Of a DNA stretch of 64,000 nucleotides, positions 1 through 32,701 are shown piece by piece; position 1 is the first letter of the stretch, and each line of letters starts with the position of its first letter. The position numbers were made by a program, and so were the translations under genes. The stretch comes from Mytilus galloprovincialis (taxonomy: Eukaryota), in NCBI RefSeq assembly GCF_965363235.1, contig NC_134842.1, positions 33,912,757 to 33,976,756 on the forward strand. Direction: 5' to 3'. Under the pieces are notes generated by a model, which saw only the letters and a list, made by a program, of their open reading frames with translations, had not been told where the DNA came from and made no database searches.

Positions 1-96
1 CATTTATTGTTACAAACAAAGGTGCAGAAAACATCGAACTTGTAAACAGAGAACGAGAGCTTGCCAAAAAAGAAAATATCACCATATATGTTATAG
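1..96 (+). CDS. Gene 1 exon (partial, frame 3): C-terminal end of a VWA domain (FIVTNKGAENIELVNRERELAKKENITIYVI), donor G|GTAAAA at 97
   Basis: Open frame 3 from window start; VWA-like C-terminal motif (ITIYVIG); GT donor followed by A-rich intron; phase 1 matches next exon. Confidence 0.5.
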
Positions 97-899
97 GTAA
101 AAAAAAAAAACAGTATACTAGTATGTTATGCATAAAATGTAAAATCACAAAAATACTGAACTCAGATAAGGATATTTAAGGATATTTTAGTACTAAAGTA
201 TTATTCAAGGAATACAAATTTATTTTTAATTAAATATGATGCCATTATCAATTTATAAACGTGTTTCTTACCAAAAATTAATATCATTTTACTTCAAAAC
301 AAAGAATGAATTGAAAAAAAAATTATTTTGCTTTCAAGGATTTAAACCGGATGTGACATTAGATCAACTGGTTGCGATAGCTGGATCTAATGATTTGGTT
401 TCGTACTATGAGAGCAGTAATAGACTCATCCAAATGTCTTCAAGATTTGTACAGCTGGTATCAGGTTAGTTTATCATTTATCAATCATGGTAATCAGCGG
501 CTGTTTCTGGGGAAATCCTTATTGACAATTTTTGAACTTTTGTAGATCTTGCCGATAAATTGTTACATGATATTCGAAAATGTTCAGTATTTCTCACAGT
601 CCAAATTATTTGTAACACATTTCTAAGCAAATTCGAAACTTAGAGACGTCTGCTTGTTAAAACTTTTGCCAAATTAAAAGTATAGACTACGTTATAACTG
701 TTTCGAAGTTCGGATAAATCAGGAATCAAACGAATAGGTTTTATAGGAAAAAGAGTCATGACAAAATTAAAAGAAAAAGTAAAAAAAGATTAACACAATT
801 GACAAAACAGAAATAAGTTTGTTATAAATCTAAAGTAAAAAAAAAACATAACTTTCTTATTTGTTTTAAAATAGTTTGTTTCGTTATTAATTGTTTCAG

Positions 900-1505
900 A
901 ATTTGGTAGTGACGCAAAACTAGCTTTTGCCATTTCTGGTACAGGAATGTCGGCCAATGCATTCAGTCATATGAGGAACGTCGTTGTCACAGCAGCCAAC
1001 TTGTATAAGCAGCTGTCGCAGCTTGGTAACAAAAATATAGAACTTGCAGCTGGCCTTATCGGGTATAACGGATTTTATTTAGTTCAGCCGCTTACTGCTG
1101 TAAGTAATATCAATCTGGTTCAACTGGAAAACAGCCTTGCTCAATTGGTAAATGAACCTCTAGCACAGTCAATGATGAATATGTACTTTACATTGTCTCA
1201 GCAGAAGGTAGCAGGAAGACCACAATACGCAGTGGTGTACTATTCCGGGGGTCTAGGCAGCAATAAAAATATGGTGTTGAAGATTGCACAAATGATGAGG
1301 GACAATGGTATAACAGTGATTCCATTTAATGTGGACGGGATCAGTACTGATGTTGAAAATTCTGCTGAGTATAAAGATGCAGTTCTCTTGGCTGGTGGTA
1401 ACGCAAATAACGTTATGTGGCTGTCCAGAAATTATATCAGAAATAACCAAACAAAAAACCCAATTGAACTGAGCGGATATCTGAAAAACAATATCATGAA
1501 CGTGG
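900..1505 (+). CDS. Gene 1 exon: VWA-like domain lacking the DxSxS MIDAS motif (…QYAVVYYSGGLGSNKNMVLKIAQMMRDNGITVIPFNVDG…)
   Basis: Acceptor ttgtttcAG at 898-899, donor G|GTATGT at 1506; contains ORF 947-1588 frame; phase 1 in / phase 1 out, consistent with flanking exons. Confidence 0.6.
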
Positions 1506-1971
1506 GTATGTCACCTTATGACAGTAAATTCATGCATGCTTACACATATGCATTTTTGAAAATTTTGTTAAAAAAAAACACTCAATGATGCGATTGCAAT
1601 GCAGGTCTGAAAGTTTAAAAGAAAAAAAAAACATATCATTTCTAGAAAGAGGCTGTGTATAGGTGTTTATTAGAATAGAAAATAATTGGCAACAAATATA
1701 AAGAGAGATAAATGGACCAAACAATAAAAACACAGAGAATATTAAGGAAATGAAACATAACAAATAATTGGCAAAAAATATAAAGCATGGAGAAAAATGG
1801 CATAACAATTAAAGAATACAAAAATGCAGATCCCCCATTTAGACCATCAGATACTCTTGTACTAGCAACTAAATACCAGAAGTTTTTATTTTATTTTATC
1901 AGGGAAATACAATTTTTTTTATCGAATTGTAGCATTATCGGTTCTGTATAGATGTTTAAATTCTTCTTTAG

Positions 1972-2541
1972 GTAATTATGGCTGTAATGTTGATGTCTCC
2001 ATGGGTCAAATGGGGGATCTAGATCCAAGTGCATTGAAGGAAGTTCGTAAAATTATAGCAGCTTTCATTGGAACGTCGGAACAAGATTGTAAAGGTCGAA
2101 TGAAAATGGGTGTGTTCGAATTCGACCAGACGACGTATGCTCCGTTGATACATTTCGGTCTACACAGTGACTATGCCAGCCTACAGAATGCTTTCCAGAC
2201 ACAAAGTGACATTCGAACCGCTTACCCTAGGGGATCAGCTGCTATACAGTATATTCTTAATTCACTTACTCAAAATCAACAATCAGATATGGTTAAAGCT
2301 GGCGTACTCCTTGTTGATGATGAAGTATATTCAAAATACGAGACATTGATAAAAGCGTACAACGCATATGCGAAAGGGATCCATGTAATTGTTATGAGCG
2401 TGTCACAGGCAGGGTCATTGCTTACACAACAAGACAAGGTCAACATGGCTAATGGTGTGGCAGCCAATACGTTTACAGTTAACAATATAGCAAGCTTAAA
2501 CACAGATGGCAAGGCGTATCTAATTAACATACTGGGCCAAT
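1972..2541 (+). CDS. Gene 1 exon: second degenerate VWA-like domain (…AGVLLVDDEVYSKYETLIKAYNAYAKGIHVIVMSV…)
   Basis: Acceptor ttcttctttAG at 1970-1971; donor T|GTAAGT at 2542; same frame as ORF 2001-2615; phase consistent. Confidence 0.6.
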
Positions 2542-2860
2542 GTAAGTTTTCGACGTTAGATTGGACATTTGCCAATTCCCGATTGGATTCTGTTATACCA
2601 CTCTTTTTAAGCTAGTAGCTTCCCTTTGTTATTCGTAGAATAGTTCTATAACAGACAAAATTGGCATTTTGCATATGCAAAGCATAATAAGTTGAAAGTT
2701 GTCAAAAGTAATTGGCTTAAAAACAATTTAAATGTAATCAAAAGATTTGGAAAACTTTTAAAAAGGTTACAAACATTAAGCATATATCATTTTGCTCTTT
2801 CCGTTAACTCTCCATTCCTAATAAAAACTGACATGCCTAACTTGAAAAAGAATATCTAAT

Positions 2861-3260
2861 TTAAGGATGTACTTAGGTGAAATTTGAAAAATCAAGAAAT
2901 TGAAATTGATACTACATGTTGAATGAGCACCAGCTATGGAACAAAATAAGCTAAAAATATTGATAGGTCATGGAGCTCCTTTTCGAGTTATTTGAGTTTT
3001 AAAAATTGGCGGGAAAAGGCTGACTCGGACTTTTACCTTACATTTGCATTGGTATTATTTGGGTCTCAAATCGAAAGAACAAAAATTAAGAATCTGCTTA
3101 AATTTTGGAAAATGGCCTTTTATGAGCTATTGAAGTCATTTATGAAAAGAAAAATGGGTGTTATGGGGCAAAATATTTAACCCTGTATTGATGGAAAAAA
3201 ACCCAAGGAGTCCGAACATCTGACACCAATTTCCAAAACCTCACCTAAGTACATTCTTAA
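2861..3260. mobile_element. MITE copy 1 (~392 bp) with 20-bp terminal inverted repeats TTAAGGATGTACTTAGGTGA / TCACCTAAGTACATTCTTAA, flanked by TTAA
   Basis: Near-identical second copy at 31405-31816; TIRs read directly; no internal ORF; sits in a gene 1 intron. Confidence 0.7.
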
Positions 3261-3550
3261 AGGTCAATAACGGGAATGATCAAACAGATTATTAATGACG
3301 CTAATTCTTTTAGCAAATTCATAATTGTGACGTAATGATATTGTAAAACGTATGTGATTTTGATTTGATATATTTTTGTTTCTATGATTAAAATAGCCAA
3401 TTGTACGACTAGAGTATCACCACAATGTTATATATATTCTGATTTTGCTAGATACATTTTATGTGCATTTTATAAAAGTTAAATGTAATTATTATCAGTT
3501 GCATAAAACATCTACATTTGAAGCAGTAATATTTTGGCTTTATTTTGCAG

Positions 3551-3682
3551 TAAATACATTTAATCCAACAACAACTGCTGCAGCAACAACTTCCTTGGCA
3601 ACAACAACGACAACGACGACACAAGCACCAACAACTACCACCATCAAAACAACAACGCGCGACTATAACACAGGTTTAACAG
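3551..3682 (+). CDS. Gene 1 exon: Thr-rich mucin-like linker (NTFNPTTTAAATTSLATTTTTTTQAPTTTTIKTTTRDYNTGLT)
   Basis: Acceptor ttattttgcAG 3549-3550; donor CAG|GTAGGT at 3683; phase 1/1; Thr-rich low-complexity coding typical of O-glycosylated linkers. Confidence 0.55.
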
Positions 3683-3699
3683 GTAGGTGAATACCGGGC

Positions 3700-4500
3700 A
3701 CGTGATCGAAACGCCATTATACAATCCTGTATACGTGAGAGATCAAAACGTCATTATACAATCCTGTATACGTGATCAAAACATCATGAAACAATCCTAA
3801 CACGCGATAAAAACATCATTAAACCATTATGTATACGTGATCAAAACGTCATTATACAATCATGTACACGTGATCAAAACGTCATTATACAATCCTAACA
3901 CGTGATCAAAAAATCATGAAACAATCCTAACACGCGATCAAAACATCGATAAACTATTATGTATACGTGATCAAAACGTCATTATACAATCATGTACACG
4001 TGATCAGAATGTCATTATACAATACTAACACGTAATCAAAACGTCATTAAACAATCCTGAATACGTAATCATAACGTCATTATGCAATCCTGTATACGTG
4101 ATCAAAACGTTATTATACAATTCTATATATACGTGATCTAAACGTCATTATGCAATTTTATATATACGTGATAAAAACGTCATCATGCAATCCTGTTTAC
4201 GTGATCAAAACGTTATTATACAATTCTGTATACGTGATTAAAACGTCATTATCCAATCATGAACACGTGATCAAAACGTCATTATAAAATCATATTCACG
4301 TGATCAAAAACGTCATTATACAATCCTAACATGTGATCAAAACATCATTAAACAATCCTGTATACGTGATCAAAACATTATTAAACAATCCTGTATACGT
4401 GAACAAAACGTCATTGTACAATCCTCACCCGTAATCAAAACGTCATTAAACAATCCTGAACACGTGATCAAAACGTCATTATATAAATCATGTTCATGTG
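3700..4500. repeat. Minisatellite: ~40-bp unit (acgtgatcaaaacgtcattatacaatcctgtat) × ~20, immediately downstream of the Thr-linker exon
   Basis: Tandem periodicity read directly; unit variants carry small indels. Confidence 0.85.
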
Positions 4501-4788
4501 AAATTTGTGTTCCTAATAATTAACGCTTTTTGATATTTTTCTCCTCAGTAGTAAAGTTATAAAACAGGATTTGAGTAAGAAATACCATATCTACTTTATA
4601 AAAGCTTCCCTCTCGTGTTCTCTTTGTGTGTGTAAAAGTCTCAATAGTTTATACGAGAAAAAACAACATCTAAATCTAACAACAGTGGTATACTACTGTT
4701 GCCTTTACTGAACACTTTAAAAGTCACTGTAAAAACATACTGGCACATATTATTTCATTTGGCCTAATGAACACATTTTATTTTTCAG

Positions 4789-5364
4789 AATGCCTTGGTC
4801 CTGCTGATATTGCAATTGCGCTAGATTCTTCTGACAGTCTACAAATACCAGATTTCCAAAACTCGAAGGATTTTGTTAATACATTAGTTGCCAACATGCG
4901 TATAGGAGTCAATAACATTCGACTTCGATCTGTTTTTACTTTCAGCACAACCATAAAAGATATAGTTGATGATGTGTACGACAAAAATATTATAAGAGCA
5001 TTATTGCAAGCAGCAACTATGCTGAAAATAGGTACCAATACACATTTGGCTATTCAAGAAATCAGATTGAGATTACAGAGGGCTCCACAAATATCTACCA
5101 ATCCACAATTCGGTATTATTATCACTGATGGTAAATCGGCCTATCCCGCTCTAACGAAAGATGAGGCTGATTTGGCATATAACCAAGGCATCACTATGTT
5201 CGTTGTTGGAATTGTCAGTCCGAAATATTCGATTAGCGAACGACAGACAATGATAGACGAATTATATAGAATAGCTGCTAATATTATTACCAATGTTATT
5301 GTTGTAAAAGACTTCGAAGAAATGTTGACTGCTCTGCCAATATTGAATACTTTAATTTGTAATC
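4789..5364 (+). CDS. Gene 1 exon: canonical VWA domain with intact MIDAS (DIAIALDSSDSL … GTNTHLAIQ … IIITDGKS … GITMFVVGI)
   Basis: Acceptor ttatttttcAG 4787-4788; donor C|GTAAGT at 5365; DxSxS, T-x-G and TDG motifs; whole domain in one exon. Confidence 0.75.
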
Positions 5365-5504
5365 GTAAGTATCTACAATTATCAGTTACATTTTAAGTAT
5401 TTAATAAATTTGTCTATATGTCATTTTCTTTTCTTTCCCAAAATTGTTATTTGTTTTTAAAGTGATAAAGATTATAAAACATTGTCGACTGCTGTACTCC
5501 AACT

Positions 5505-5720
5505 TTTGTCTTGTAATGACATTGTATTCAATGAAATTGTATTCAACTGTCATACAAGTGAGAGATTTAGCTAGCTATAAACGAGGTTTAATCCAACTTT
5601 TTCGAAGTAAGACAATGCATGTACGAAATGGAATATGACAGTTGTTTTCCATTCGCTTGATGTATTTGAGGTTTTAATTTTATCATTTGATAATGGATTT
5701 TCCGTTTTGAATATTTTCTT
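5505..5720. mobile_element. Interspersed repeat family D (actgtcatacaagtgagagatttagctagctat…gatggattttccgttttgaat)
   Basis: Copies at 7430-7625 and 23100-23220, all in gene introns or intergenic DNA. Confidence 0.5.
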
Positions 5721-5823
5721 TTCTATTCAAGTAGTATAATTTCAGTTGCCACGACGACCATTAATTATCTGAACTATGGAGTATTTTTCTTTTCATATTT
5801 TAAAATATTGATTATAATTTCAG

Positions 5824-5868
5824 TTGCCACGACGACCACAACTTCTACCACTGTCACCGTTCCTACAA
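5824..5868 (+). CDS. Gene 1 45-nt micro-exon: Thr-rich linker (ATTTTSTTVTVPT), phase 1/1
   Basis: Acceptor tataatttcAG 5822-5823; donor ACAA|GTAAGT at 5869; partial duplicate of its acceptor plus first 17 nt at 5738-5775 (pseudo-exon). Confidence 0.45.
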
Positions 5869-6839
5869 GTAAGTACCATCAACGTATCCTTACTAGGATT
5901 TAGATACTGTAAACCAATTTTTTTTTCGTGGATACTTTATTTCGCGTGAAGCTCTTACTAGCGAATTTCGCTACGACTTAAGTTCGTGATTATAAGTTTG
6001 CTTCGTTGATATGGAAAGAGCCCAATTTGACAAATTCTCGACGATTTATATATCCGCGTTATTGTTCTACTCGCGAAAGATGAGAAAAATAATGGAGGCT
6101 TCACTGGCCAAGTGGTCCAAGTAGTTACTACAGTAAAACACCCAAAATCAAATCAATATGGAAAAAGCCAAATTTGACATATTCGCGATGATTTATATTC
6201 GCGTTATTTTTCTACTCGCGAAAGACGCGCAAACAAATCGCTCCCGAAAATTATTTGGTGTATAGTATATTTATTAAGGGTTAACAGAGGAACTTCATTA
6301 CAGGGTTGTTGACAACTACTTGATGTTATAGTATGTATGTATCATTTTGAATACTTTTTTTACCTTGAATAGAATTGAGATAACAAACCTATAGGTTTCT
6401 ACTATTCAAAGAGTCTCAAATTAACATGACAGCAGTTTACCTATATTTTAATCTCATGTATTCGCACAGCTTACAATAAAATATATGTAGTCGTTCTTAA
6501 AATAAAAATTAGTTAGAGTTATTACTCTTTCTTCACAGTATCATTGGGCTTCTGCAATAAAACGCAGCCACCAGCTTTTTTTATTACACTTATAATTTGC
6601 AGTAATTTTAAAAAAGTGAATCTAATAAAATCAGCCTAAATTTCTTTATTAAACTCAGATACGGATCTATTTAACATGCGTTTCGACTATATTAACGTAT
6701 GTGTACAATTCTAAATATAGGGTCCAACAACCGTTTTCATTTCTTAATACTAAATAATTGCGAAAATAAGATTCCACTTGAACTTGAATAAACGCTATAG
6801 ATTTGTTAGCTATGATATGATTTGAATATGGAAATAAAT

Positions 6840-7095
6840 GACCATGATTACATATCTTATATACTACGCTTTAGATTGGTTAGTTTTGAGATAATTTGAT
6901 ATTGAAAATAAATTACCATGAATACATGTGTTATACTAATAAATACATGTGTTATACCATGCTTTCGATAGGTAAGCTATGAGATGATCTGATATTGAAA
7001 AAGGATGACCATGATTACATATCTTATACCACGCTTTATATTGGTTATAGCTATGAGATGATTTGATAGTGAAAATAAATGACTGTGATTACTTT
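6840..7095. repeat. Tandem repeat, ~75-bp unit × ~3.5 (…atgaccatgattacatatcttatac…ttgatattgaaaataaat…) ending ~15 nt before the ChtBD2 exon acceptor
   Basis: Direct reading. Confidence 0.7.
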
Positions 7096-7109
7096 CTTTA
7101 TAATACCAG

Positions 7110-7331
7110 CTACACCACAGTTTGCTACTGAATGTATAACCAGATGCGACCCAAATGCAATTCGGTGCTACGTTCCTCATCCAACAAACTGCAAGTATTA
7201 TTTGGACTGTATCAGAGAGGCAGGTGCTACCCAGTTTGTGCAGTACAGTATTCAAGAATGCGGGCTACACTACTTTTTCAATCCAGACACATCCAAATGT
7301 GATCATCTTGACGAATTCATTTGTAAACAAG
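7110..7331 (+). CDS. Gene 1 exon: chitin-binding domain type 2 / peritrophin-A (CITRCDPNAIRCYVPHPTNCKYYLDCIREAGATQFVQYSIQECGLHYFFNPDTSKCDHLDEFIC)
   Basis: Six-Cys ChtBD2 spacing with aromatic cluster; acceptor ctttctttataataccAG 7108-7109; donor CAAG|GTAAGA at 7332; phase 1/1. Confidence 0.7.
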
Positions 7332-8163
7332 GTAAGAGGTCTGATATACTAAGATCAGTCATTTAAAGGTTTCTCTAAGAAAAGTGACAAAACGAATGTA
7401 CTATGGTCAATATGATTGAATTTAAGTCGACTGTCATACAAGTAAGAGGTTTAGCTAGCTATTAATCCAGGTTTTATCTACCGTTTTCCACAAAAGGAAA
7501 TGTATGTACCAGAAAATCGAGATCATAATAGCTGTTTTCCATTTGTTTAATATGTTTGAACTTTTGCTATTTGATGATGGATTTTCCGTTTTGAATTTTC
7601 CTCGGAGCTTGGTATCTTTGTTATCTTACGTTTATGTACTGAATTTTATTCATTTAACCAAATTATTTCACTCATATTCAGTGTAACCAGGCATGCACGA
7701 TGCTTCACGACTTTCTTTTTATGAATGCATTGCTTAATCAATATCGTCTTCGTATATCATTGTTTATTTCTAATTATCATTTAAAGTTTTAATTGACCAA
7801 AATATTGTGAATAAAACCAAAGATATATTTTCTAGATGTCACTTCACGGTTTGTACCAAAAAACTAATTATAGATACCAGGATTGAAATTTTGTATTTGC
7901 GCTAGATGCGTAAAAAAATAATCACAGTGAAGCTCGAATGAAAAAAAGTTTAAAAAGCCAAATAAAGTACTACGTGGAAGAGCATTGAAGACCAATAAAC
8001 AGCTAAAGTAACATATTCCTATGGTAGAAAAGCCTAAGTATTTAACAAATTCAATGTTTTGTAAACAGATAATTTTTATAGTAAACGAATTCAGGAATAT
8101 GACAGTCATTATCCATTCTAATTCGTTTTGAATATTTTTGAAAGTTTTTTGTTTGTACTCCAG

Positions 8164-8972: not shown

Positions 8973-9146
8973 AACTAGAAAGATGTAAAAGGTTTAAGAT
9001 TGGGGATAATAAATATATTGAGGACGGGTCGGAAAAAGAATGTGCAACTGGACAAATATTTAAATCGGAGAGGTGCAGCTGTGTTTGGGGAGAACTTCCA
9101 ACAACCCCTACGGTCACAACAACAGTTCAGCCAACAAGTAATGGAG
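8973..9146 (+). CDS. Gene 1 exon: ChtBD2 C-terminal half (ERCKRFKIGDNKYIEDGSEKECATGQIFKSERCSCVWGELP) plus Thr/Pro linker (TTPTVTTTVQPTSNG)
   Basis: Acceptor ccaaattttAG 8971-8972; two candidate donors (A|GTAATG 9137 or G|GTAAAT 9147), both phase 1. Confidence 0.5.
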
Positions 9147-24800: not shown

Positions 24801-25739
24801 CAGCTAAGGTAATCTATTCATTGGGTAGAACCTCAAATAATTCCGAAATATGCAAAATTTGGAAACAGTTAATCTATTATTATGATATAAAGATTTAAAA
24901 ACACCAGCTTATTACTTATTATTGAAAACGTATTGGTCTGCATGTATACTTGCACATATTCAATCTCACACCCTTTGGTGTTTTGTTGATTATAATCTCA
25001 AGGTTAACATCCTAAAACACAGAAAGAGGTCAAGTGATGGCTAACTATCAGATTAGCAACGTCATATGACGTGGCCGAAAATTTACAACAGCATTGACAA
25101 TCACTTACAAGAATTGTGTTCTTTTGAAATACTATTCTCGTTAAACAGAAATGTCATGCAAAGTATCACCGTACGCAATAAATATATTCAACTGTAGACT
25201 GGGAATCGATTCGGTAGAGTATTTCAAATCTTCACCGAATTCTTTAATCAGCAACCTCAGTCTTTGCTCTCTTTGTTTTCATTGAGTGTAATAACAAGGA
25301 TATATAAGCTACTGGTCACCAGTAGGACTACGGCCACCTCAAGAAAAATCATGTGTGCGATTATTTATTGTATAGAATGTCTACTGTATAGGATGTAAAT
25401 CCATCTACAGAGTTGAACCCATAGAAAATTAAGCAGTTGATGATGGATTTCCTTAAAGATAACACAAATTATACAGAAATTTAGCGTAATGACATAATGA
25501 TACGACCCTATTTAGATATATTGAATGCAAAATAAAACAGTGTGTCGTGATATTTAAGGGATAAAAATAAGTTGACATAATACACAAAGTACACAGTAAC
25601 GTCACTCAGTGACACAGTGGTATCTTCAAACTTTGATGTGATTTGACTTATTTCATCATATATGAAACTGAAACTAAGTTCTATAATCTGCTACAGAATC
25701 TTAATAATTTCTATACACAATATAAAACTTTGATGTTAC

Positions 25740-25830
25740 CTTTCATTGAAACAGCCTGCTCTTCATCATCAACCTTTGCCCTTAATGCTGTTCCATCATA
25801 TACGTATGTTACATTTTTCCATGCTTTATC
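25740..25830 (-). CDS. Gene 2 exon (DKAWKNVTYVYDGTALRAKVDDEEQAVSMK), phase 0/1
   Basis: Minus acceptor ttatgtcaacAG; donor AAAG|GTAACA; phase links 28817 exon (phase 0) to 19708 exon (needs 1 nt); positional equivalent of gene 1 exon 12964-13078. Confidence 0.4.
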
Positions 25831-26249
25831 CTGTTGACATAAAAAAAAAAAAAAAAACAATTCTTAATTGTATTTAGCTTCAAACATTTTTGTGTAAACT
25901 ATATCATTTGATTCATGGATATCTGATCTATATGTATTGTAATGCTAAATAATGTATGTATCGAAGAATAATATGTTGAGGGCAAATTTCACTTAGACGT
26001 GTACTTGCCATGAATTACAAACAAGTGTCGCCAGTTAAACCGGAATTCATTTCACTTTGGGTTCAGATGAGTTAAATACCGAGTTTTTGTGAGGTTAGTG
26101 AAGCTCAAATTTAATCGTCTGTGTAGTGTTGTCTGTTTGTCTGTCTTTTTCCTTTGACCATGGTGTAGTTTTTTTCTACCTATATATCTTCTTTCTTTTT
26201 TGCCATTACAAGTTCAATAAGTTTTGAAGTATTTATATATTTAAGGAAT

Positions 26250-26500
26250 GACTGTAATATTTTTTCTGTCTATGAAGAAATAACATTAAAAATTTGGTGC
26301 ACACTGAATAACATTTTTTATGTTATTTCGAATAGACAGAAAAAATATTACACTCATTTCTTATAATTTAATTCTAAATTCCATTTTAAACCGTAGAAAA
26401 CCATGAAAAAAACGTTGATGACGTCACGGTCACATGACTAAATTATGTCTATGGGCTCATAACAAAATAACGTCAGCCAATCAGAAGACGTGTTACATCC
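26250..26500. repeat. Interspersed repeat family E with internal hairpin (tctgtctatgaagaaataacat / atgttatttcgaatagacaga)
   Basis: Second copy at 34120-34345 in the same orientation. Confidence 0.5.
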
Positions 26501-28816
26501 AAAATTAAATTATATATATATATTTGGCTTTCATTGTATTGGTTTGAGTGTTTCTGGTGAAGGGTAACCAAGAACAATGCTTCAAGTGAACGACATTTAT
26601 CACTAAAACAGTTATTTCATTTAAAGGGAAATGTAGTTGTTTTCACTTGTTAAATTGATAAATAATGTTTGATTTTGTAAGTTGTTATAGACTTCCCCTT
26701 TGTGAATTTACACACGAGTTTAGAATTATTGTTATACTTTTTTAAACGTTTTATGGGCCATGAGACTGAAATAGCAATAAAGTAATTTAAAAATAAAATT
26801 TACTTCAAGTTTAACACATACGGTTTATTATCTATAAGATAACAAAACAAATTAACAGTCCAGACTTATTTTGAGAATGTTAAACAATCTATAATACTAA
26901 AATAACGAGGTCCAATTTGTCAGCCGTCATCGGGTAAAAAAGACAAATCAAAGAATTCAACTTTGTATATAACTAATATAGGACAATGGTGTAGATTAAA
27001 AATTACACCACTCCACACCCTTTTGTTTTCCACATAAATAATATTGCCAATAATAAACAAGTTCCGGGTCGAATCCGATACCGATACCAATAGTATATTC
27101 ACCTGTTACCTATTACCTTATCTGTACGTTCCGCATCTGACAAGCGCACCACCAAACGGTGTAGTTAGGATTTTGCTGGTCATAATCACAGGGTTGACAC
27201 TACTAAATTAAATCATTGTCAATTTGTTCCCTATTGTAGTATTTTAATCAGTAAGACTTTCTAAGATAACAATACGAATACTAAAAATCTGGACTTAAAA
27301 TAAGGCGTATAGGTACTGATTTCAATTTGTTAGCGGGCATGACGTAAAACAGAGAATAAAAAAATTCAACTTTATTTACAATGCTGTTGATTAAAAATTA
27401 CTCCATTCCAGGACCTTTTGTTTTCCAAATAATTAATATTACCAATAATTAATAAGTTCCAGGTCGACGGGTTCAAACAGAAAGATTTTGAAAGCAGAGA
27501 AAACTATGTATCTTATAATCGGCATGACTTTATCAGATTACAATACCAATACTTAAATAAGGCTTACGCATAGTTATATACTTTAATTCAGTCACGGACC
27601 CGCGATATCACGGGTGTGTTCTAGTGTTAACTTAAAAAGCGACAGAAATTAAGTTTTGGCTACCGAGGTAGTCAGTAAAATCACAAATTTAAAATAACAT
27701 CATTCGAATAGAAATAGAAGTGATACGATTATAATACCGTGGGAAGAATTCATGATTGCTCCTATTTAGTGTTGACTTAAATACGTTAAAGCGGTTTTGG
27801 TGGTGACAGTCATTAAAACTACTAAAACCGGACCATGAATGATTCCTCTGAACGTTACTTATAAAAAACCACAAATGATTGATACCAACATGACTAAAGC
27901 AATAGTTATCGTACATTGTTTATGACTTACAAAGAAATGCGGGCTTATCATATAAACAAGAAGTTATTTACGTAAAAAACAGCAAAACATATGTTACTAT
28001 TCTAGAAATTTCAATTTAAACCCCTATATAAACAATACAGCTATAGACTTCGCATAAACAACAACAAAAACATCAAACAACCTATTCATCTATTTGTTCG
28101 GAAAATACTACATTTTTCCTAACAAAAAAGTCTTCACAAGTGCAAACATTTGACAGGAAAATGTAAGTAATTGTCAGGAGGTTAAAGTTTTAAATGTGAC
28201 GACTTGTAAATTTAGGAGGGTAATGACTTAAAACAAAAGGCTTTACTGAAATTAGGGTTTGAGTACGTGTTGTGGGAAATGTCAAGAACATGAGAACAAA
28301 CACTCACAAAATATAAAAAGTAAAATCACAAATATACTGAGCTCTGAGAAAAATTTAAAACGGAAAGTCCCCAATTAAATAGCAAAACACTATACATGTC
28401 AATCCGACGAAAACTACTTTCGGGAAATTTTCTGAGGACACATTGCTAACAACAGGTGTGCTCGCAATTTCGCACTGTTTGGCATTGATAGGGTGATAAG
28501 GCTGTCTGCTTGTATGTTCAAGGTCTTTATTCAAAATATTTAAATTTCGGTTACGTTTTTTATTATAATAGTTTGCATAATGATAAATATAAATATATAT
28601 AAACGTTCTAATTTAAAATTTGAGTAAAAGCAACCTTCATCTTTTAAGGCTATTTTACATAAGTCTAGTGTGATCACTTCTTCAGATTATTTTCATAAAA
28701 AAAAAACCTGACATTTGCCTCTGTTATTACATAGAGTCCCATAAATAGCAACTTTCACTGAATGTTAAAAATAGTTGCCAATATATGTAAACCTTAATTT
28801 CTTGTTGCTTGCTTAC

Positions 28817-29175
28817 CTTATATGGTAATCGGATTTCAGCAGGTCCACTAGCAACTGTATCTGCTCTAAAAATAACTTCTTTATTTCTTGGCGCTAATGC
28901 AATTTCAACCGCACCTAATTCATTATCCGCACAATTAGAAACTAATACTTGTTCATCCGGGCCTCCTGGGAAATCGTAGAAACGCAAACTTATTGTCAAT
29001 TTTTGTCCGAAGTCAATATTTTTATACATCCATATTGTTAACTGTCCGATACCGTTAAATCTACCAGCGTTAGCAACAGAATCCACGTGACCATTATTAC
29101 CAATGGCAATGTGTGTGCCGCCATTATCTATAAGTGGTTTACTATCATAGTCTAAATATATTTCTGGTCTGCAAT
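28817..29175 (-). CDS. Gene 2 exon: unassigned ~119-aa module ((Y)CRPEIYLDYDSKPLIDNGGTHIAIGNNGHVDSVANAGRFNGIGQLTIWMYKNIDFGQKLTISLRFYDFPGGPDEQVLVSNCADNELGAVEIALAPRNKEVIFRADTVASGPAEIRLPYK)
   Basis: Minus acceptor cttcaatttCAG (plus 29176-29178); donor AAG|GTAAGC (plus 28815-28816); contains ORF 28727-29086; paralog of gene 1 exon 10729-11081. Confidence 0.6.
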
Positions 29176-29922
29176 CTGAAATTGAAGAACTGATTTAAGA
29201 ATTTCAAACCAAACAAAATATAAAATTATTAAATGAGATGTGGGAATACGTCAATTAAACTACAACTCGATGTCAACATAAACTGACACTTTTAGAGGTC
29301 AACAAAACGTGTTTACAAAAAGATATGTCTATACAATATGCCAAGGTCTACGCTGTGACTTCTATATGTCTTGTTGGTTCTATTTTTTGAGGTTGATGAT
29401 GCCTCATTCAATAAACGTCTCATCTCCTTTTATTCATATCTGTATATTATATTACAACAGAACAATATCAGATATATGCAACTTGCTTTTAAACATACAT
29501 CGGAATATCATCATTATTTTGGCAAAAATTAAAACAGAACATTACTGATTCAATTTCGATATAATAATAATGATATCAAACAGCAAGTGAGTTCTCTTCA
29601 GTGATATCACCTGTCATAGAGCCAAATGGCGGCATCAATACAAGGAAATGCTCTGGATACATTAAGCCAACAGTATTTAACTGAAGTTAAAATCTCGTAG
29701 ATCGATACACCTAAGCTTACAAACAAAATTAAATAAATTAGATAAACGTCATAAGAAGCGCTACCGGGTGCGCTGAAACGGTAAGTATCTCGTCTCATTC
29801 CTGCTTTGTATGTATCATCCGTCATCCGAATTCACCGAGTCAAATTATCAATAACATTAAGTCGTTTTCTCTGGGTTGATCATATAGTTCATTTATATGT
29901 ATTACAACTCATCCATACTTAC

Positions 29923-30069
29923 AAATACTTGTTACAGGTGCTAAATCAATACAGCCGCATTCTCTGTCATTGTAAAGGGTACCAATTGGACAACGTCGTC
30001 TTATTGTACCATATCCATGGATATATTGGGAGAAATAATTTCTGTCGGCGTCTGGTGACGTTAAACAAG
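29923..30069 (-). CDS. Gene 2 exon: ChtBD2 C-terminal half (CLTSPDADRNYFSQYIHGYGTIRRRCPIGTLYNDRECGCIDLAPVTSI)
   Basis: Minus acceptor ttgcctttCAG; perfect donor T|GTAAGT (plus acttac 29917-29922); CPxGxxYNxxxxxCxC pattern; phase 1/1 joins the 29175 exon in frame. Confidence 0.55.
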
Positions 30070-30149
30070 CTGAAAGGCAACTTCAGTTTATTCTCAAGAC
30101 AAAATAAGCTTAATACATTTTTGTTTTAAAAATTTGATATTTAGTTTGG

Positions 30150-30330
30150 CGAAACGGTTTTGATTTTGGTGGGGTTCGTGTTGTTTATTATTTAGTTTTC
30201 TATTTTGTGTCATGTGTACTATTGTTTGTCTGTTTGTCCTTTTCATTTTTAGCCATGGCGTTGTCAGTTTATTTTCGATTTATGAATTTGACTGTCTCTC
30301 TGGTATCTTTCGTCCCCCTTTTATGGAAGA
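30150..30330. mobile_element. Interspersed repeat family C (ttttggtggggttcgtgt…ccatggcgttgtcagtttattttcgatttatgaatttgactgtctctctggtatctttcg)
   Basis: Copies at 48393-48500, 13845-13935, 26100-26170, 56595-56680. Confidence 0.55.
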
Positions 30331-31404
30331 GTAAGTGATCGGCATTAAATAGTAAATAGAGTAAACTAAACATAAAAATAAACACCGCTGCAGATGCACA
30401 TCAATCAAGTTGAGCGACTTCGATTCTTTAGAGTCTGTTATTTTTCATTTTTAGCCAAAACTATGGAAAATAAAGTAAAATTACATGCTGTGAAAATGAG
30501 CAGTAGGACAAGATCAGCAAATATATTTTATGGACGATACTGTCAGTCTACTTCTTATAAAAGTTGTTTTCCTTTTATGATGGCGATCCTTATTTTTTTG
30601 TTTATTTTGCAAATCCTACACTAGAAAAAGAATGACTATAAACTGCAAAAATGACCAGTAATAAGACATCGACAAAATTTGTATTTTGGCAAATGCTATA
30701 ATAAAGAGAAACATGACATATAAAAAATTATCTACAATAAAAGATCAGTTAAAAGGATATCTTAGTCATTTTCTTATTTCAGTGTTCAGATTTGGAAATG
30801 CACACAGAAAAGACACATGTTTTTAAAAGTCTCTAGTTATGTCATGTGTTAGCTTGCTTTTCACATTTTCCATGTAACAGTTATCGTAAAATAAGCTGTG
30901 GGTTACAAATTTTCGCTTTTATATAGCTTTGTAAGTATTTTTAAAAACATTTTTAGTTTGTGTACTTTTATTTGTTTACCTCCATGTTTAATTTTTTCCT
31001 ATGAAAGAAAATGTGTGAGGTAAATGTCAACAAAACCGCAATCAGACATAATTAATCAGTGTATTTTCTTTTCACTTATTGTTTTTGGGAAAACACTGGG
31101 GTTGTTATCTCCCTTTTTAGGTTTTGATTACCGTTTTTCTCCCCTTTACATTATAATCAACAAAATCATCTTAATCTTGTGTACACTTTTTCCTAATGGG
31201 AGTCAAAATTGATAAATACAATTAGTTGGTTTGTTTGCTAGACAGGTTTTAGAGAAGTCTAAATGAGTGGCAGAAAATACCAAAGGCACATGAAGTTAGT
31301 TGCAATTATTTTTCTTTATTATTATCAATCAAAGTTACGGAAATGAATTAAACCTCTACAAAGAGCATTCTACCACTGGTAAAGTTTCTCTCAATTACAG
31401 TAAT

Positions 31405-31816
31405 TTAAGGATGTACTTAGGTGAGGTAAGGTAAAAATTATAAAATCAAGAATTTAAAATTGATAGTATAAGCTGGTAACTCATTCGTTAAGGATAAAAA
31501 TAAGCTAAAAATATTGATAGGTCATGGACCTCTTTTTCGAGATATTTGAGATTTAAAATATGGCGGGAAAAGGCTGACTCGGACTTTTACCTTATATTTG
31601 CATTGGTATTATTTGGGTCTCAAAACAAAAAAAAAAAGAAAATCAAGAATCTTCTAAAACTTTGGTAAATGACGCTTCATGAACTATTTAGTCTTATATG
31701 AAAAAATAAATGGGTGTTATGGGGCAAAATATTTTACCGTGTGTTGTATGAAAAAAACACCAAGGAGTCCGAACATTTGACACAAATTCCAAAACCTCAC
31801 CTAAGTACATCCTTAA
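31405..31816. mobile_element. MITE copy 2 with perfect 20-bp TIRs, TTAA at both ends
   Basis: Aligns along its length with 2861-3260 (aaggctgactcggacttttacctta…ggggcaaaatatt…ccaaggagtccgaacat); sits in a gene 2 intron. Confidence 0.7.
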
Positions 31817-31869
31817 GACGTGATGCTACTGTTACCTGTATTTGAATTAAACAGTGAACAGTTACTTAC

Positions 31870-32016
31870 GCCCTCTAGTTGTAGATTCGAATGGTCTAAA
31901 TCCAGGTCTCTGCTCTCCAGGAAGCCTAATTGGGTCCAACGGTCTTGTATTTCCATTTCCTGGTCTATTGATAGGTTCAGTAGTTGGTCTAGGTCTTGTT
32001 GGAAAAGTAGCTGTAG
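31870..32016 (-). CDS. Gene 2 exon: Pro/Thr/Arg-rich linker (ATATFPTRPRPTTEPINRPGNGNTRPLDPIRLPGEQRPGFRPFESTTRG)
   Basis: Minus tandem acceptors tttgAG/ctacAG (start 32016 or 32010); donor C|GTAAGT (plus 31864-31869); phase 1/1. Confidence 0.45.
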
Positions 32017-32545
32017 CTCAAAGATAAATAAGACAGTTCACATATAAATTTCTAAAAAACCGTAATTTTGAGTTGATATTAAACATATTTTGCCTTTATT
32101 GCAGTGAGACATTTTCAAAGCAAGATTCCTAATACTTTAACCATTATGTTGTGTTAAGCAATATTGACGTTCCCTTTTCAATCATATGTTTCATATTTTT
32201 AGATGTTCCGTTTAAGTTGTGAAAGAAGCACAAAGCAGGAGAGATCAATATTAAAGAGAAGGAAAACAAGCATTTGAGTAGGAAGTATAGAAAGATTGAA
32301 GTAAGTTTAGAAGAGACAATCTTATTTGAACCTATTTATCCGATCACATCGGATGGTGGTAAAACTAAACATTTTCGGACGATGATTTTGTTTTAATTTC
32401 GCTCCCATTTCTATGATATAAAATGATATCAGCTGCTTTATTCTTCTATGTATAAATCCGATCACGATGGTGATAAACATAAAATTAACGTCAAGATGTT
32501 TTTCAATTTTTCGCGCTTATTCTAATAGTTAATATAATATATCAC

Positions 32546-32701
32546 CTGAATTATTATTTCTTGGTGGCCAATCACATAAACATTTTTCCTGATTAAAATG
32601 TGTTCCATCAGCGCATCTAAATTCACCGGAAGCACGTGATGAGGTTAAATAAACTTTGTATTTTGTTGTATCCCCTTCTACAGGACGTAATACACAACTT
32701 C
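32546..32701 (-). CDS. Gene 2 exon: ChtBD2 C-terminal half (SCVLRPVEGDTTKYKVYLTSSRASGEFRCADGTHFNQEKCLCDWPPRNNNS)
   Basis: Minus acceptor ctttttacAG (plus 32702-32705); donor CAG|GTGATA; CxDGxxFNxxxCxCDWP is the diagnostic ChtBD2 ending; contains ORF 32529-32750. Confidence 0.55.

What the first reader, a model, noticed from the sequence alone, without database searches (positions are those of the whole stretch)
1..32701. Two convergent paralogous VWA + chitin-binding (Pif/BMSP-like) genes sharing a conserved C-terminal exon set
Gene 1 (+, exons 1…15871) and gene 2 (-, exons 32701…17769) each end with the same ordered exon series: ChtBD2 half-domain, a ~118-aa module, a ~30-38-aa exon, a ~25-29-aa exon, and a short terminal exon. 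Pairwise similarity is readable by eye, for example CIPSIHLDF / CRPEIYLDY, SNCADNELGAVEIALAPRNKEVI / KSCSGNPMASIQMYAERTNTKNKLI, ACNGALNVGQPFGGNGPFVGDIYD / MCNRRGYVGYIDD, and WKVWNGCDNIPV / LKVHRCVNIDYV. Splice phases agree throughout. The two stop codons face each other about 1.9 kb apart (15871 vs 17769). This looks like an inverted duplication of a biomineralisation-type gene, with gene 1 carrying four or more VWA domains upstream.
Basis: partly seen in the sequence, partly recalled or inferred. Interest (0 to 1): 0.65.

Follow-up and report, generated by a model that had tools for sequence, protein, structure and literature searches.

The report
Two tail-to-tail mussel shell-matrix-type genes
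Two real mussel genes face each other tail to tail and both end in the same ancient four-exon laminin-G module of the known Pif/BMSP shell-protein family, but they are already annotated distant relatives (one has no VWA domain), not a fresh inverted duplication.

Summary
Every quoted peptide, the exon order, the splice phases and the two facing stop codons (15871 and 17769) are present.

The window is Mytilus galloprovincialis, and both genes are already RefSeq models that map to it at 100% identity.
- **Gene 1 (+ strand):** the last 14 exons of LOC143075666, a 2190-aa secreted protein with multiple VWA domains, two CBM_14 domains, a 4-Cys module and a laminin-G (LG) domain.
- **Gene 2 (- strand):** 'shell matrix protein-like', 385 aa. 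It starts at 36208, not 32701, and has no VWA domain. Its layout is signal peptide, 4-Cys module, Pro/Thr linker, 4-Cys module, LG.

The shared exon series is a '4-Cys + LG' cassette. Its intron positions and phases are the same in scallop, another Mytilus paralogue and the limpet Lottia, so it is a family-wide ancestral structure.

The two cassettes are only about 21-23% identical. Each is closer to other family members than to the other, and gene 2 has orthologues in scallops and a unionid. No inverted DNA repeat remains between the genes. A recent or local inverted duplication is therefore not supported.

Both genes are under purifying selection. The gene 2 orthologue in Perna is reported from nacre. 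This is an ordinary gene cluster of a known family.

The parts
1..15871 (+). Gene 1, 3' part: last 14 coding exons of M. galloprovincialis LOC143075666 (XP_076107298, 2190 aa; residues ~1059-2190). Exons: 1-96 (cut by the window start), 339-464, 900-1505, 1972-2541, 3551-3682, 4789-5364, 5824-5868, 7110-7331, 8164-8403, 8973-9146, 10729-11081, 12964-13078, 14035-14123, 15812-15871 (with stop).
   Evidence: Exact threading of P0044 on the window, all introns GT-AG. Protein identity and names; sequence.
1..464 (+). C-terminal half of a VWA domain of gene 1 (two exons), cut by the window start.
   Evidence: Pfam VWA E=3.9e-8 on the corresponding P0044 segment.
900..2541 (+). Two single-exon modules of about 190-200 aa (900-1505 and 1972-2541). 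They are VWA-sized and sit between VWA domains, but are not recognisable as VWA by sequence.
   Evidence: No VWA hit in Pfam at E<=10. No PDB sequence hit. Only weak internal similarity to the VWA at 4789-5364 (E=0.13-0.18).
3551..3682 (+). Thr-rich linker exon of gene 1 (NTFNPTTTAAATTSLATTTTTTTQAPTTTTIKTTT). A second short Thr-rich linker exon lies at 5824-5868.
   Evidence: Exon map. Thr-rich low-complexity linkers between VWA domains and between VWA and CB are described for BMSP/PifN subfamilies (PMC11291548).
4789..5364 (+). VWA domain exon of gene 1 with an intact DxSxS (DSSDS) MIDAS motif.
   Evidence: Pfam VWA E=8.5e-19, VWA_2 E=2.2e-6.
7110..8403 (+). Two chitin-binding peritrophin-A (CBM_14 / ChtBD2) exons of gene 1: 7110-7331 and 8164-8403, both phase 1-1.
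   Evidence: Pfam CBM_14 E=2.4e-5 on the first. P0013 carries a precomputed PF01607 hit. The second exon encodes a Cys-rich module that aligns with the second CB domain of the homologues. Exon map.
8973..9146 (+). It is followed by a Thr/Pro-rich tail.
   Evidence: Exon map. phmmer similarity to the gene 2 4-Cys exon, E=0.016. The same module precedes LG in every family member examined.
10729..15871 (+). Laminin-G / ConA-like domain of gene 1, split over four exons: 10729-11081, 12964-13078, 14035-14123, 15812-15871 (with stop). Intron phases 0, 1, 0.
   Evidence: No Pfam hit. The AlphaFold2 model of P0013 (pLDDT about 70-90 over this region) matches neurexin LNS2, agrin LG3, pikachurin LG3, laminin alpha2 LG5 and NEL (Foldseek E 3e-8 to 4e-6, TM-target 0.55-0.62). 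dN/dS versus M. coruscus is 0.385.
15872..17768 (.). 1897-bp AT-rich (26.5% GC) spacer between the two facing stop codons. It must hold both 3' UTRs; several AATAAA/ATTAAA signals occur on each strand.
   Evidence: The same tail-to-tail spacing (about 1.8 kb) is annotated in M. coruscus.
17769..36208 (-). Gene 2: complete CDS of 'shell matrix protein-like' (XP_076107300, 385 aa). Exons: 36208-36136 (ATG + signal peptide), 32701-32546 (4-Cys), 32016 or 32010-31870 (Pro/Thr/Arg linker, tandem acceptor), 30069-29923 (4-Cys), 29175-28817, 25830-25740, 19708-19632, 17876-17769 (LG exons, with stop).
   Evidence: Exact threading of P0063, P0070, P0066 and P0067. Names. Orthologues. dN/dS versus M. 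coruscus is 0.22.
17769..29175 (-). Laminin-G / ConA-like domain of gene 2 in four exons, intron phases 0, 1, 0.
   Evidence: Pfam Laminin_G_3 E=3.5e-5 / 1.4e-4, below the gathering score (22-24 bits against 27.6). Orthologues P0011 and P0012 carry PF13385. The AlphaFold2 model of the 97% identical P0001 (pLDDT 80-95 over the domain) matches ConA-like jelly rolls: BoNT HCN subdomains and NEL LamG, E about 5e-9.
52073..56013 (-). Gene 3, outside the finding and only partly resolved: a VWA exon (about 56013-55392) and an exon encoding two CBM_14 domains (52438-52073) that ends in a stop codon. A third member of the VWA-CB family, upstream of gene 2 on the same strand.
   Evidence: Sequence reading. 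Pfam VWA E=3.2e-11 and 2 x CBM_14 E=5.7e-19. No LG-type exon was found between 36.2 and 52 kb.

Best explanation
The region holds two real, convergently transcribed Mytilus galloprovincialis genes. Both belong to the molluscan VWA / chitin-binding / laminin-G (Pif/BMSP-type) shell-matrix protein superfamily.

**Gene 1** is the 3' half of LOC143075666. It encodes a 2190-aa secreted protein with about ten VWA-sized modules (seven recognisable), Thr-rich linkers, two CBM_14 domains, one 4-Cys CBM_14-like module and a compact C-terminal LG domain.

**Gene 2** is 'shell matrix protein-like'. It encodes a 385-aa secreted protein with no VWA: signal peptide, 4-Cys module, Pro/Thr linker, 4-Cys module, LG domain.

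**The shared exon series.** Its exon structure is a phase-1 module exon followed by an LG domain cut by phase 0/1/0 introns at fixed positions. That structure predates the bivalve-gastropod split. The two genes are deep paralogues from different subfamilies that lie tail to tail, not the product of a recent inverted duplication.

**Function (inferred from the family, not shown here).** Both are probably secreted matrix proteins.
- The CBM_14 and 4-Cys modules would anchor them to chitin.
- The VWA repeats of gene 1 would cross-link other matrix proteins.
- The LG domain would provide a mineral- or glycan-binding face.
For: **Gene models**
- Exact RefSeq models map at 100% identity with canonical splice sites.
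- Gene 1 is supported as a single gene by the M. galloprovincialis, M. edulis and M. trossulus RefSeq models (2190-2199 aa), and by a 2197-aa M. coruscus model ending 1.8 kb from the gene 2 orthologue.

**Domains**
- Pfam finds 7 VWA stretches (E=5.7e-76) plus CBM_14 in P0044, and a partial CBM_14 plus Laminin_G_3 with no VWA in P0063.
- Both predicted structures show an LG fold.

**Family-wide cassette**
- Identical intron positions and phases occur in gene 1, gene 2, the Pecten orthologue, the M. californianus 1812-aa paralogue and Lottia 236718. LG exon sizes are 353-380 / 91 (115 in gene 1) / 77-89 nt.

**Deep divergence**
- Gene 1 versus gene 2 cassettes score 24-29 bits. Each scores 42-100 bits to other members. 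The neighbour-joining clade of gene 2 + Mcal1812 + Airr871 has 100% bootstrap and excludes gene 1.
- Gene 2 orthologues exist in scallops and a unionid.
- There is no DNA-level inverted repeat; only intronic repeat copies are shared.

**Both genes functional**
- dN/dS is 0.32 for gene 1 and 0.22 for gene 2 against M. coruscus.

**Literature**
- VWA + CB + LG defines Pif/BMSP proteins, and the Pif97 VWA domain pulls down other matrix proteins (PMC11291548; PMC7747718).
- The Perna viridis nacre proteome contains a protein whose best hit is XP_021364733.1, the scallop orthologue of gene 2 (PMC6641155; cluster membership).
Against: - No transcript or proteome data for these two Mytilus loci were examined directly. 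RefSeq models are predictions, although normally RNA-seq guided.
- An older M. galloprovincialis annotation splits gene 1's CB-LG part into a separate 427-aa model (P0013).
- One M. edulis assembly carries a 2-bp deletion in gene 1's first LG exon.
- Gene 1's LG is not detected by Pfam, and the Pif LG motifs do not match it.
- Gene 1's cassette sits on a long branch (dN about 3 times that of gene 2). A distance tree could therefore misplace it, and an old local duplication followed by acceleration cannot be strictly excluded.
- Membership of gene 1's VWA domains in the Pif/BMSP VWA clade was not tested.
Confidence: 0.85

Rival explanations
1. One reading: the pair arose by an inverted duplication at this locus of a single VWA + chitin-binding biomineralisation gene. 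Gene 2 would be the truncated or diverged copy.
For: - Tail-to-tail orientation with only 1.9 kb between the stops.
- Same cassette order and phases.
- Weak direct similarity, E=0.003-0.01.
- Such inverted duplications do happen in this family. In Lottia two convergent VWA-CB-LG genes lie about 1 kb apart and are 59% identical in the first LG exon.
Against: - Gene 1 and gene 2 are the least similar pair among all cassettes compared.
- Gene 2 clusters with proteins from other loci and species at 100% bootstrap.
- Gene 2 orthologues with the same VWA-less architecture exist in Pecten, Argopecten and Sinanodonta, so any duplication predates the divergence of these bivalve orders.
- The exon structure is family-wide.
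- No inverted DNA repeat is present.
- In Pecten no convergent partner is annotated, and no family exon is detectable, in the 10 kb downstream of the orthologue.
Confidence: 0.08
2. The CB-LG exons of gene 1 (7110-15871) form a separate gene or a decaying pseudogene, and are not the C-terminus of the multi-VWA protein.
For: - The 2020 M. galloprovincialis annotation has a stand-alone 427-aa model for exactly these exons (P0013 / VDI00741).
- Lottia's equivalent is also annotated as two models: 390 aa with VWA x2, and 360 aa with CB-LG.
- One M. edulis assembly has a frameshifting 2-bp deletion in the first LG exon, and its model stops there.
- Gene 1's LG evolves about 3 times faster than gene 2's.
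Against: - P0013's N-terminus (MTVITFFIKP...) is read from intron sequence and has no signal peptide.
- All exon junctions from the VWA exons into the CB exons are phase-1 compatible with strong splice sites.
- RefSeq models in three Mytilus species, a second M. galloprovincialis haplotype and the M. coruscus model all join them into 2190-2199 aa proteins.
- The reading frame is intact in M. galloprovincialis and M. coruscus, with dN/dS 0.32.
Confidence: 0.05
3. Gene 3 (VWA-CB-CB, then stop) and gene 2 (signal peptide-4Cys-linker-4Cys-LG), adjacent on the same strand, are the two halves of a formerly single Pif-type gene that underwent fission. This would be a genomic counterpart of the proteolytic Pif97/Pif80 split. 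The tail-to-tail pair with gene 1 would then mirror the Lottia convergent pair.
For: - On the minus strand the order VWA, CB, CB | 4-Cys, LG reproduces the canonical family architecture, with no other LG exon in between.
- Lottia has a convergent pair of full-length family genes.
Against: - Gene 2 orthologues with their own signal peptide exist in scallops and a unionid.
- In Pecten the upstream same-strand neighbour seems to keep its own LG-type exon: one 33-aa tblastn match, E=8e-4.
- Gene 3's CB domains resemble Lottia and Potamilus members rather than the Mcal1812/Airr871 clade to which gene 2's cassette belongs.
- The Lottia pair are close paralogues of each other (59% identity), which indicates an independent duplication.
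Confidence: 0.07

Closest known systems
BMSP (blue mussel shell protein, M. galloprovincialis) and the Pif/BMSP family of VWA-CB-LG shell matrix proteins (Suzuki 2009, 2011, 2013; Shimizu 2024, PMC11291548; Zhao 2020, PMC7747718)
   Same: Gene 1 has a signal peptide, tandem VWA domains, Thr-rich linkers between VWA domains and before the CB domains, two CBM_14 domains, a further CBM_14-like module and a C-terminal LG domain. It comes from the same species as BMSP. Its CB-4Cys-LG region is homologous to Lottia 236718, which is encoded directly downstream of a two-VWA model. Lottia 236718 matches the published Pif LG motif at 60% identity.
   Different: - Gene 1 has about ten VWA-sized modules, not four.
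- Its LG domain is compact, without the long low-complexity (Pif80 / BMSP100-type) insert. After LG only about 15 residues remain, so there is no acidic mineral-binding region.
- Its LG is too divergent for Pfam or the published Pif LG motifs.
- Placement of its VWA domains in the family's VWA clade was not tested.
'Shell matrix protein-like' / 'asparagine-rich protein-like' proteins of scallops and mussels (e.g. XP_033747646 Pecten maximus, XP_021364733 Mizuhopecten yessoensis), and Perna viridis nacre protein Unigene2638
   Same: Gene 2 is the Mytilus orthologue. It is 54-61% identical over the full length, has the same signal peptide / 4-Cys / linker / 4-Cys / LG layout, and has the same eight-exon structure. 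The Perna counterpart was identified in nacre (PMC6641155).
   Different: Nothing substantial. These proteins are named by automatic annotation and have no experimental characterisation that I could find. They lack the VWA domain and the full six-Cys CBM_14 domains of Pif/BMSP proper.
Laminin-G / LNS / ConA-like lectin jelly-roll domains (neurexin LNS, agrin LG3, laminin alpha LG, NEL/thrombospondin N-terminal domain, BoNT HCN subdomain)
   Same: Predicted fold of the C-terminal ~200 aa of both genes. The typical C-terminal 'F/Y-x-G-x-I/M-D-D/E + hydrophobic' strand motif is present in both (sequence reading).
   Different: Sequence identity to solved LG domains is only 8-17%. Ligand-binding or Ca2+-site residues were not examined. 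In these mollusc proteins the domain always follows a 4-Cys module and starts with a conserved 'C-x-P-x-[IVL]-x-L-x-F' strand.

Membership tests
Pif/BMSP family (VWA-CB-LG shell matrix proteins) | One or more N-terminal VWA domains | tested here: met
   Gene 1: Pfam VWA, 7 stretches, E=5.7e-76 on the full RefSeq protein. Two of these lie in the window. Gene 2 fails this feature (see the separate row).
Pif/BMSP family (VWA-CB-LG shell matrix proteins) | VWA domain present (tested for gene 2) | tested here: not met
   The complete 385-aa product (P0063) has no VWA hit and no room for one: signal peptide, two 4-Cys modules, a linker and LG account for the whole length. Gene 2 should therefore not be filed as a Pif/BMSP protein in the strict sense, only as a carrier of the family's C-terminal cassette.
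Pif/BMSP family (VWA-CB-LG shell matrix proteins) | CBM_14 (peritrophin-A) chitin-binding domain(s) downstream of VWA, often followed by degenerate CBM_14-like modules | tested here: met
   Gene 1: CBM_14 E=2.4e-5 on exon 7110-7331, a second CB exon at 8164-8403, and a 4-Cys CBM_14-like module at 8973-9146. Gene 2 has only partial CBM_14 matches (profile positions 24/25-48 of 53; E=4.2e-4 and 8.1e-5). That corresponds to the 'CBM_14L' class of PMC11291548.
Pif/BMSP family (VWA-CB-LG shell matrix proteins) | Laminin-G region downstream of the CB domains | tested here: met
   Gene 2: Laminin_G_3 is sub-threshold (22-24 bits against 27.6), supported by a predicted ConA-like fold. The published Pif LG C-terminal motif matches only weakly (46% over 24 aa, E=1.4; the Pecten orthologue gives E=6.5e-4). 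Gene 1: no Pfam hit and no match to the Pif LG motifs, but a predicted LG fold and homology to Laminin_G_3-positive proteins P0024 and P0027.
Pif/BMSP family (VWA-CB-LG shell matrix proteins) | VWA domain falls inside the Pif/BMSP clade in a VWA phylogeny, or BLASTP E<1e-10 to the PfuPif VWA (criterion of Shimizu 2024) | not tested
Pif/BMSP family (VWA-CB-LG shell matrix proteins) | Long low-complexity (acidic / Gly / Ser-rich) insert between the N- and C-terminal LG blocks (Pif80 / BMSP100-type mineral-binding region; typical of Pif and BMSP subfamilies) | tested here: not met
   In both genes the LG domain is a contiguous ~200 aa with no low-complexity insert. This resembles the few members reported with a 'complete' LG domain.
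BMSP subfamily | Four tandem VWA domains in bivalves | tested here: not met
   Gene 1's protein has 7 Pfam-detectable VWA stretches, and I count about ten VWA-sized modules in 2190 aa. It is not BMSP itself.
Shell matrix protein (operational definition) | Product detected in shell extracts, or expressed in mantle epithelium | not testable with these tools
   No expression or proteome data can be queried. Indirect evidence only: the Perna viridis nacre proteome lists a protein whose best hit is the scallop orthologue of gene 2 (PMC6641155). Searches for the Mytilus accessions in papers found nothing.
Laminin-G / ConA-like lectin superfamily | ~180-200 aa beta-sandwich jelly roll | tested here: met
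   Foldseek against PDB. Gene 1 model: neurexin LNS2, agrin LG3 and laminin alpha2 LG5, TM-target 0.55-0.62, E 1e-6 to 3e-8. Gene 2 model: BoNT HCN subdomains and NEL, E about 5e-9. These are predictions, with pLDDT 70-95 over the domain.

The most novel reading that the evidence does not exclude
The tail-to-tail pairing of LG-cassette genes could be a recurrent or conserved feature of this family's genomic organisation, since it occurs in both Mytilus and Lottia. In addition, the same-strand neighbours gene 3 (VWA-CB-CB) and gene 2 (4Cys-LG) could record a fission of a Pif-type gene into separately secreted 'Pif97-like' and 'Pif80-like' halves. That would be a genomic equivalent of the proteolytic split known for Pif and BMSP.
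Probability: 0.1. Interest if true: 0.45.

Novelty: new member of a known kind. Interest (0 to 1): 0.22.

Why it matters
For a genome scan this is a correct call of real genes but not a discovery. Both genes are already in RefSeq, and the VWA-CB-LG architecture is well described for molluscan shell matrix proteins.

Three modest points add value:
1. The '4-Cys + LG' cassette has a fixed exon/phase structure shared by bivalves and a gastropod. I did not see this described in the papers I read. It is a useful marker for annotating and correcting fragmented Pif/BMSP-type gene models, which are split in the M. galloprovincialis 2020, M. edulis and Lottia annotations.
2. A VWA-less '4-Cys + LG' protein family, conserved across bivalve orders and found in Perna nacre, carries the Pif-type C-terminal cassette on its own.
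3. At least three family members cluster within 56 kb in Mytilus.

Tried and rejected
- **Six-frame BLASTP, gene 1 region against gene 2 region.** The top hits were intronic repeat noise, and the LG modules did not surface. Direct similarity is too weak for a blind scan.
- **phmmer of each domain exon against all six-frame ORFs.** It found no significant cross-hits between the paralogous domains.
- **First homologous-protein search with a 746-aa concatenation of gene 1 exons.** It returned nothing, although exact matches exist in the database. The word prefilter apparently saturated at 8000 candidates. Shorter C-terminal queries worked.
- **A putative signal-peptide ORF at 33317-33261.** I considered it as gene 2's first exon and rejected it because its only donor site is in the wrong phase. 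The true first exon is 36208-36136.
- **Gene 3's CB exon as the 5' part of gene 2.** Rejected: the CB exon ends in a stop codon, has no phase-1 donor, and gene 2 has its own start codon and signal peptide.
- **BMSP itself as the identity of gene 1.** Rejected on VWA number and the missing low-complexity insert.
- **Pfam and PDB sequence searches on exons 900-1505 and 1972-2541.** No VWA hit was found; their fold remains unverified.
- **Paper searches for the Mytilus accession numbers.** Nothing was found.
- **'Asparagine-rich protein' search.** It led to an unrelated abalone protein.

Full report
**1. Source of the window**

The window is AT-rich eukaryotic DNA at about 31% GC. Two M. galloprovincialis proteins returned by homology searches (P0004, P0013) are identical to its exon translations. 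The RefSeq M. galloprovincialis proteins XP_076107298 (P0044, 2190 aa) and XP_076107300 (P0063, 385 aa) thread onto it at 100% identity with canonical GT-AG introns. The window is therefore Mytilus galloprovincialis, and both genes of the finding are already annotated.

**2. Checking the observation**

Reading the exon borders and then threading the proteins exactly gives these exon maps.

| Gene | Strand | Exons |
|---|---|---|
| Gene 1 | + | 1-96, 339-464, 900-1505, 1972-2541, 3551-3682, 4789-5364, 5824-5868, 7110-7331, 8164-8403, 8973-9146, 10729-11081, 12964-13078, 14035-14123, 15812-15871 (with stop) |
| Gene 2 | - | 36208-36136, 32701-32546, 32016/32010-31870, 30069-29923, 29175-28817, 25830-25740, 19708-19632, 17876-17769 (with stop) |

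- The intron phases are 1/0/1/0 in both genes.
- The stop codons face each other 1897 bp apart.

**3. Is the similarity more than chance?**

Direct similarity is weak.
- The large exons are 23% identical, E=0.003. Whole cassettes give E=0.011.
- phmmer against the six-frame ORF set is not significant.
- An hhalign comparison of small orthologue alignments gives E=1.3e-4, probability 54%.

Homology is nevertheless secure, for three reasons.
1. **Shared third-party hits.** Both cassettes hit the same proteins: Lottia LOTGIDRAFT_236718, an M. californianus 1812-aa protein, an Argopecten 871-aa protein, a Potamilus 535-aa protein and a 388-aa ENA protein. Gene 1's cassette scores E=1e-4 to 1e-9 against them, and gene 2's scores E=1e-15 to 6e-29.
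2. **Coinciding introns.** The intron positions and phases coincide.
3. **Same predicted fold.** AlphaFold2 models of both C-termini match laminin-G / ConA-like jelly rolls. Gene 1's model matches neurexin LNS2, agrin LG3, pikachurin LG3, laminin alpha2 LG5 and NEL. Gene 2's matches BoNT HCN subdomains and NEL. Several PDB hits are shared.

The 'exon set' is thus one domain, a laminin-G (LG) domain split by three introns, preceded by a 4-Cys module.

**4. What the genes are**

*Gene 1.* The window holds residues ~1059-2190 of a 2190-aa secreted protein.
- Pfam finds seven VWA stretches (E=5.7e-76) and CBM_14.
- Within the window, the VWA cut by the window start (E=3.9e-8) and the VWA at 4789-5364 (E=8.5e-19, intact DSSDS motif) are clear.
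- The two 190-200-aa exons between them are not recognisable as VWA by Pfam or by PDB sequence search.
- Two CBM_14 exons, a 4-Cys module and the LG domain follow.
- Three RefSeq species models, a second M. galloprovincialis haplotype model and the M. coruscus model (2190-2199 aa) join all of these into one gene. An older annotation splits off the last 427 aa (P0013).

*Gene 2.* It encodes a 385-aa protein: signal peptide, 4-Cys module, Pro/Thr/Arg linker, 4-Cys module, LG.
- It has no VWA.
- RefSeq names it 'shell matrix protein-like', or 'asparagine-rich protein-like' in M. trossulus. Isoforms use a 6-nt tandem acceptor or skip the first 4-Cys exon.
- Orthologues with the same layout and the same exon structure exist in Pecten (54-61% identical). 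A further orthologue exists in Sinanodonta (46-56% identical), although its exon structure could not be threaded. Shorter paralogues occur in scallops.

*Selection.* Both genes are under purifying selection against M. coruscus.

| Region | dN/dS |
|---|---|
| Gene 1 C-terminal exons | 0.32 |
| Gene 1 LG only | 0.385 |
| Gene 2 whole CDS | 0.22 |

Gene 1's LG accumulates amino-acid changes about three times faster than gene 2's (dN 0.117 against 0.036).

**5. Is it an inverted duplication?**

The evidence is against a local or recent one.
- **The exon structure is family-wide.** Threading Pecten P0005, M. californianus P0026 and Lottia P0024 onto their loci gives the same phase-1 4-Cys exon, followed by LG exons of 353-380, 91 and 77-80 nt with phases 0/1/0. 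These map to the same alignment columns.
- **Gene 1 and gene 2 are the most distant pair.** In cassette-only comparisons they score 24-29 bits. Gene 1's best matches are Lottia 236718 (47-58 bits), Mcal1812 and Potamilus. Gene 2's best matches are Mcal1812 (100 bits) and Airr871 (91 bits). A neighbour-joining tree unites the gene 2 family with Mcal1812 and Airr871 at 100% bootstrap and excludes gene 1. Gene 1 sits on a long branch, so this topology needs a better phylogeny.
- **Gene 2's family is old.** It has orthologues in scallops and in a freshwater unionid mussel, so it is older than the divergence of those lineages.
- **No DNA trace remains.** There is no inverted DNA repeat between the two genes. 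The only shared DNA is intronic interspersed repeats, mostly in direct orientation.
- **Synteny is limited to Mytilus.** The tail-to-tail layout is conserved in M. edulis and M. coruscus. In Pecten the 10 kb downstream of the orthologue contains no family exon. Its upstream same-strand neighbour is a 1027-aa CBM_14 protein whose 3' end gives one LG-type match.

**6. Comparison with known families**

The literature defines the Pif/BMSP family by VWA + chitin-binding (CBM_14 and degenerate CBM_14-like) + LG. Features described include Thr-rich linkers, and usually a long low-complexity insert inside LG in the Pif and BMSP subfamilies. The Pif97 VWA domain was shown to bind other matrix proteins (PMC11291548; PMC7747718).

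- **Gene 1** has this architecture, but with about ten VWA-sized modules (BMSP has four) and a compact LG without the insert. Whether its VWA domains fall in the family's VWA clade was not tested.
- **Gene 2** carries only the C-terminal cassette and fails the VWA criterion. The published Pif LG motifs match Lottia 236718 at 60% identity. They match gene 2's scallop orthologue moderately (E=6.5e-4), gene 2 itself only weakly (E=1.4), and gene 1 not at all.
- **Shell evidence** is indirect. The Perna viridis nacre proteome lists a protein whose best hit (7e-123) is XP_021364733.1 (PMC6641155). That protein belongs to the 90%-identity cluster of the Pecten orthologue of gene 2.

**7. Mechanism (inferred, not shown)**

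Both products are probably secreted. P0044 and P0063 both start with hydrophobic leader sequences, judged by reading the sequences; no predictor was run.
- By analogy with the family, the CBM_14 and 4-Cys modules would tether them to chitin.
- Gene 1's VWA array would multimerise or cross-link matrix proteins.
- The LG domains would offer a glycan or mineral interaction surface.
- Neither gene has the acidic low-complexity region thought to bind CaCO3 in Pif80/BMSP100. A scaffolding or adaptor role is therefore more likely than direct control of crystal growth.

**8. Wider context and speculation**

A third family gene lies upstream of gene 2 on the same strand. It has a VWA exon (56013-55392) and two CBM_14 domains (52438-52073), and it ends in a stop codon. 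No LG exon lies between it and gene 2.

In Lottia, two full VWA-CB-4Cys-LG genes lie tail to tail about 1 kb apart and are 59% identical in the first LG exon. That looks like a comparatively recent inverted duplication, apparently independent of the Mytilus arrangement.

A gene-fission origin for gene 3 plus gene 2, or an ancient conserved tail-to-tail pair, cannot be excluded. The Pecten neighbour and the domain affinities argue against both.

**9. Verdict**

Both genes are real, annotated, distant paralogues of a known shell-matrix protein superfamily that share its ancestral LG cassette. One of them lacks VWA, and a local inverted duplication is not supported. Interest is low to moderate.

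Noticed in passing
window 52073-56013 (- strand): A third family gene lies upstream of gene 2 on the same strand. It has a VWA exon (Pfam E=3.2e-11) and an exon with two CBM_14 domains (E=5.7e-19) that runs straight into a stop codon three residues after the last Cys. Its 5' exons (the VWA exon starts in phase 1) were not located, and no LG exon follows it.
   Followed up: partly
L006 (Lottia gigantea KB203738.1) 6888-21696: Lottia has a convergent pair of VWA-CB-4Cys-LG genes with stops about 1 kb apart. The + strand copy is annotated as two models: 390 aa with VWA x2, and LOTGIDRAFT_236718 with CB-LG. The - strand copy is 1260 aa. Their first LG exons are 59% identical, which suggests a comparatively recent inverted duplication and a split gene model.
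   Followed up: partly
L001 (M. edulis GCA_905397895.1) ~35378-35380, equivalent to window ~11020: This M. edulis assembly has a 2-bp deletion in gene 1's first LG exon. It frameshifts the exon, and the assembly's 563-aa gene model ends there. The RefSeq M. edulis model from another assembly is intact (2194 aa). This is either an assembly error or a segregating null allele.
   Followed up: partly
window 3700-4483: A 33-bp minisatellite (about 24 copies, 80% matches; also scored as 65- and 98-bp periods) lies in the gene 1 intron between the Thr-linker exon and the VWA exon. It produces long spurious ORFs in several frames.
   Followed up: no
window 49950-51156: Two adjacent minisatellites lie in the gene 3 - gene 2 intergenic region: 31 bp x 27 copies at 92% matches, then 23/114-bp units. 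The strand asymmetry is strong (GC skew -0.22, AT skew +0.23). They generate long Cys/Val/Leu-rich pseudo-ORFs on the - strand.
   Followed up: no
window 49250-49720: A short GC-richer patch carries overlapping Pro/Gly-rich ORFs on both strands, unlike the surrounding DNA. It is possibly a fragment of a mobile element.
   Followed up: no
window 32016/32010 and 32701-32546 (- strand): Gene 2 has a tandem acceptor 6 nt apart, giving 385- and 383-aa isoforms. The first 4-Cys exon can also be skipped, giving 333- and 331-aa isoforms. All four variants are RefSeq models and thread exactly onto the window.
   Followed up: yes
window 2857-3260 vs 31401-31816; 10072-10247 vs 24247-24425; 13151-13328 vs 20982-21160: Interspersed repeat copies (74-93% identical, same orientation on the + strand) sit in introns of both genes. 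These are the only nucleotide-level similarities between the two gene regions.
   Followed up: partly
L003 (Pecten maximus LR736845.1) 1-490: In Pecten, the gene upstream of the gene 2 orthologue on the same strand is a 1027-aa CBM_14 protein. Its last visible exon gives one weak LG-type match (33 aa, E=8e-4). Family members may therefore be clustered in tandem there rather than tail to tail.
   Followed up: partly
window 900-1505 and 1972-2541 (+ strand): Two single-exon, phase 1-1 modules of about 200 aa sit between bona fide VWA domains of gene 1. They have lost any detectable VWA signature: the DxSxS position reads AISGTG and DVSMGQ. They may be degenerate VWA folds, but this was not verified.
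   Followed up: partly
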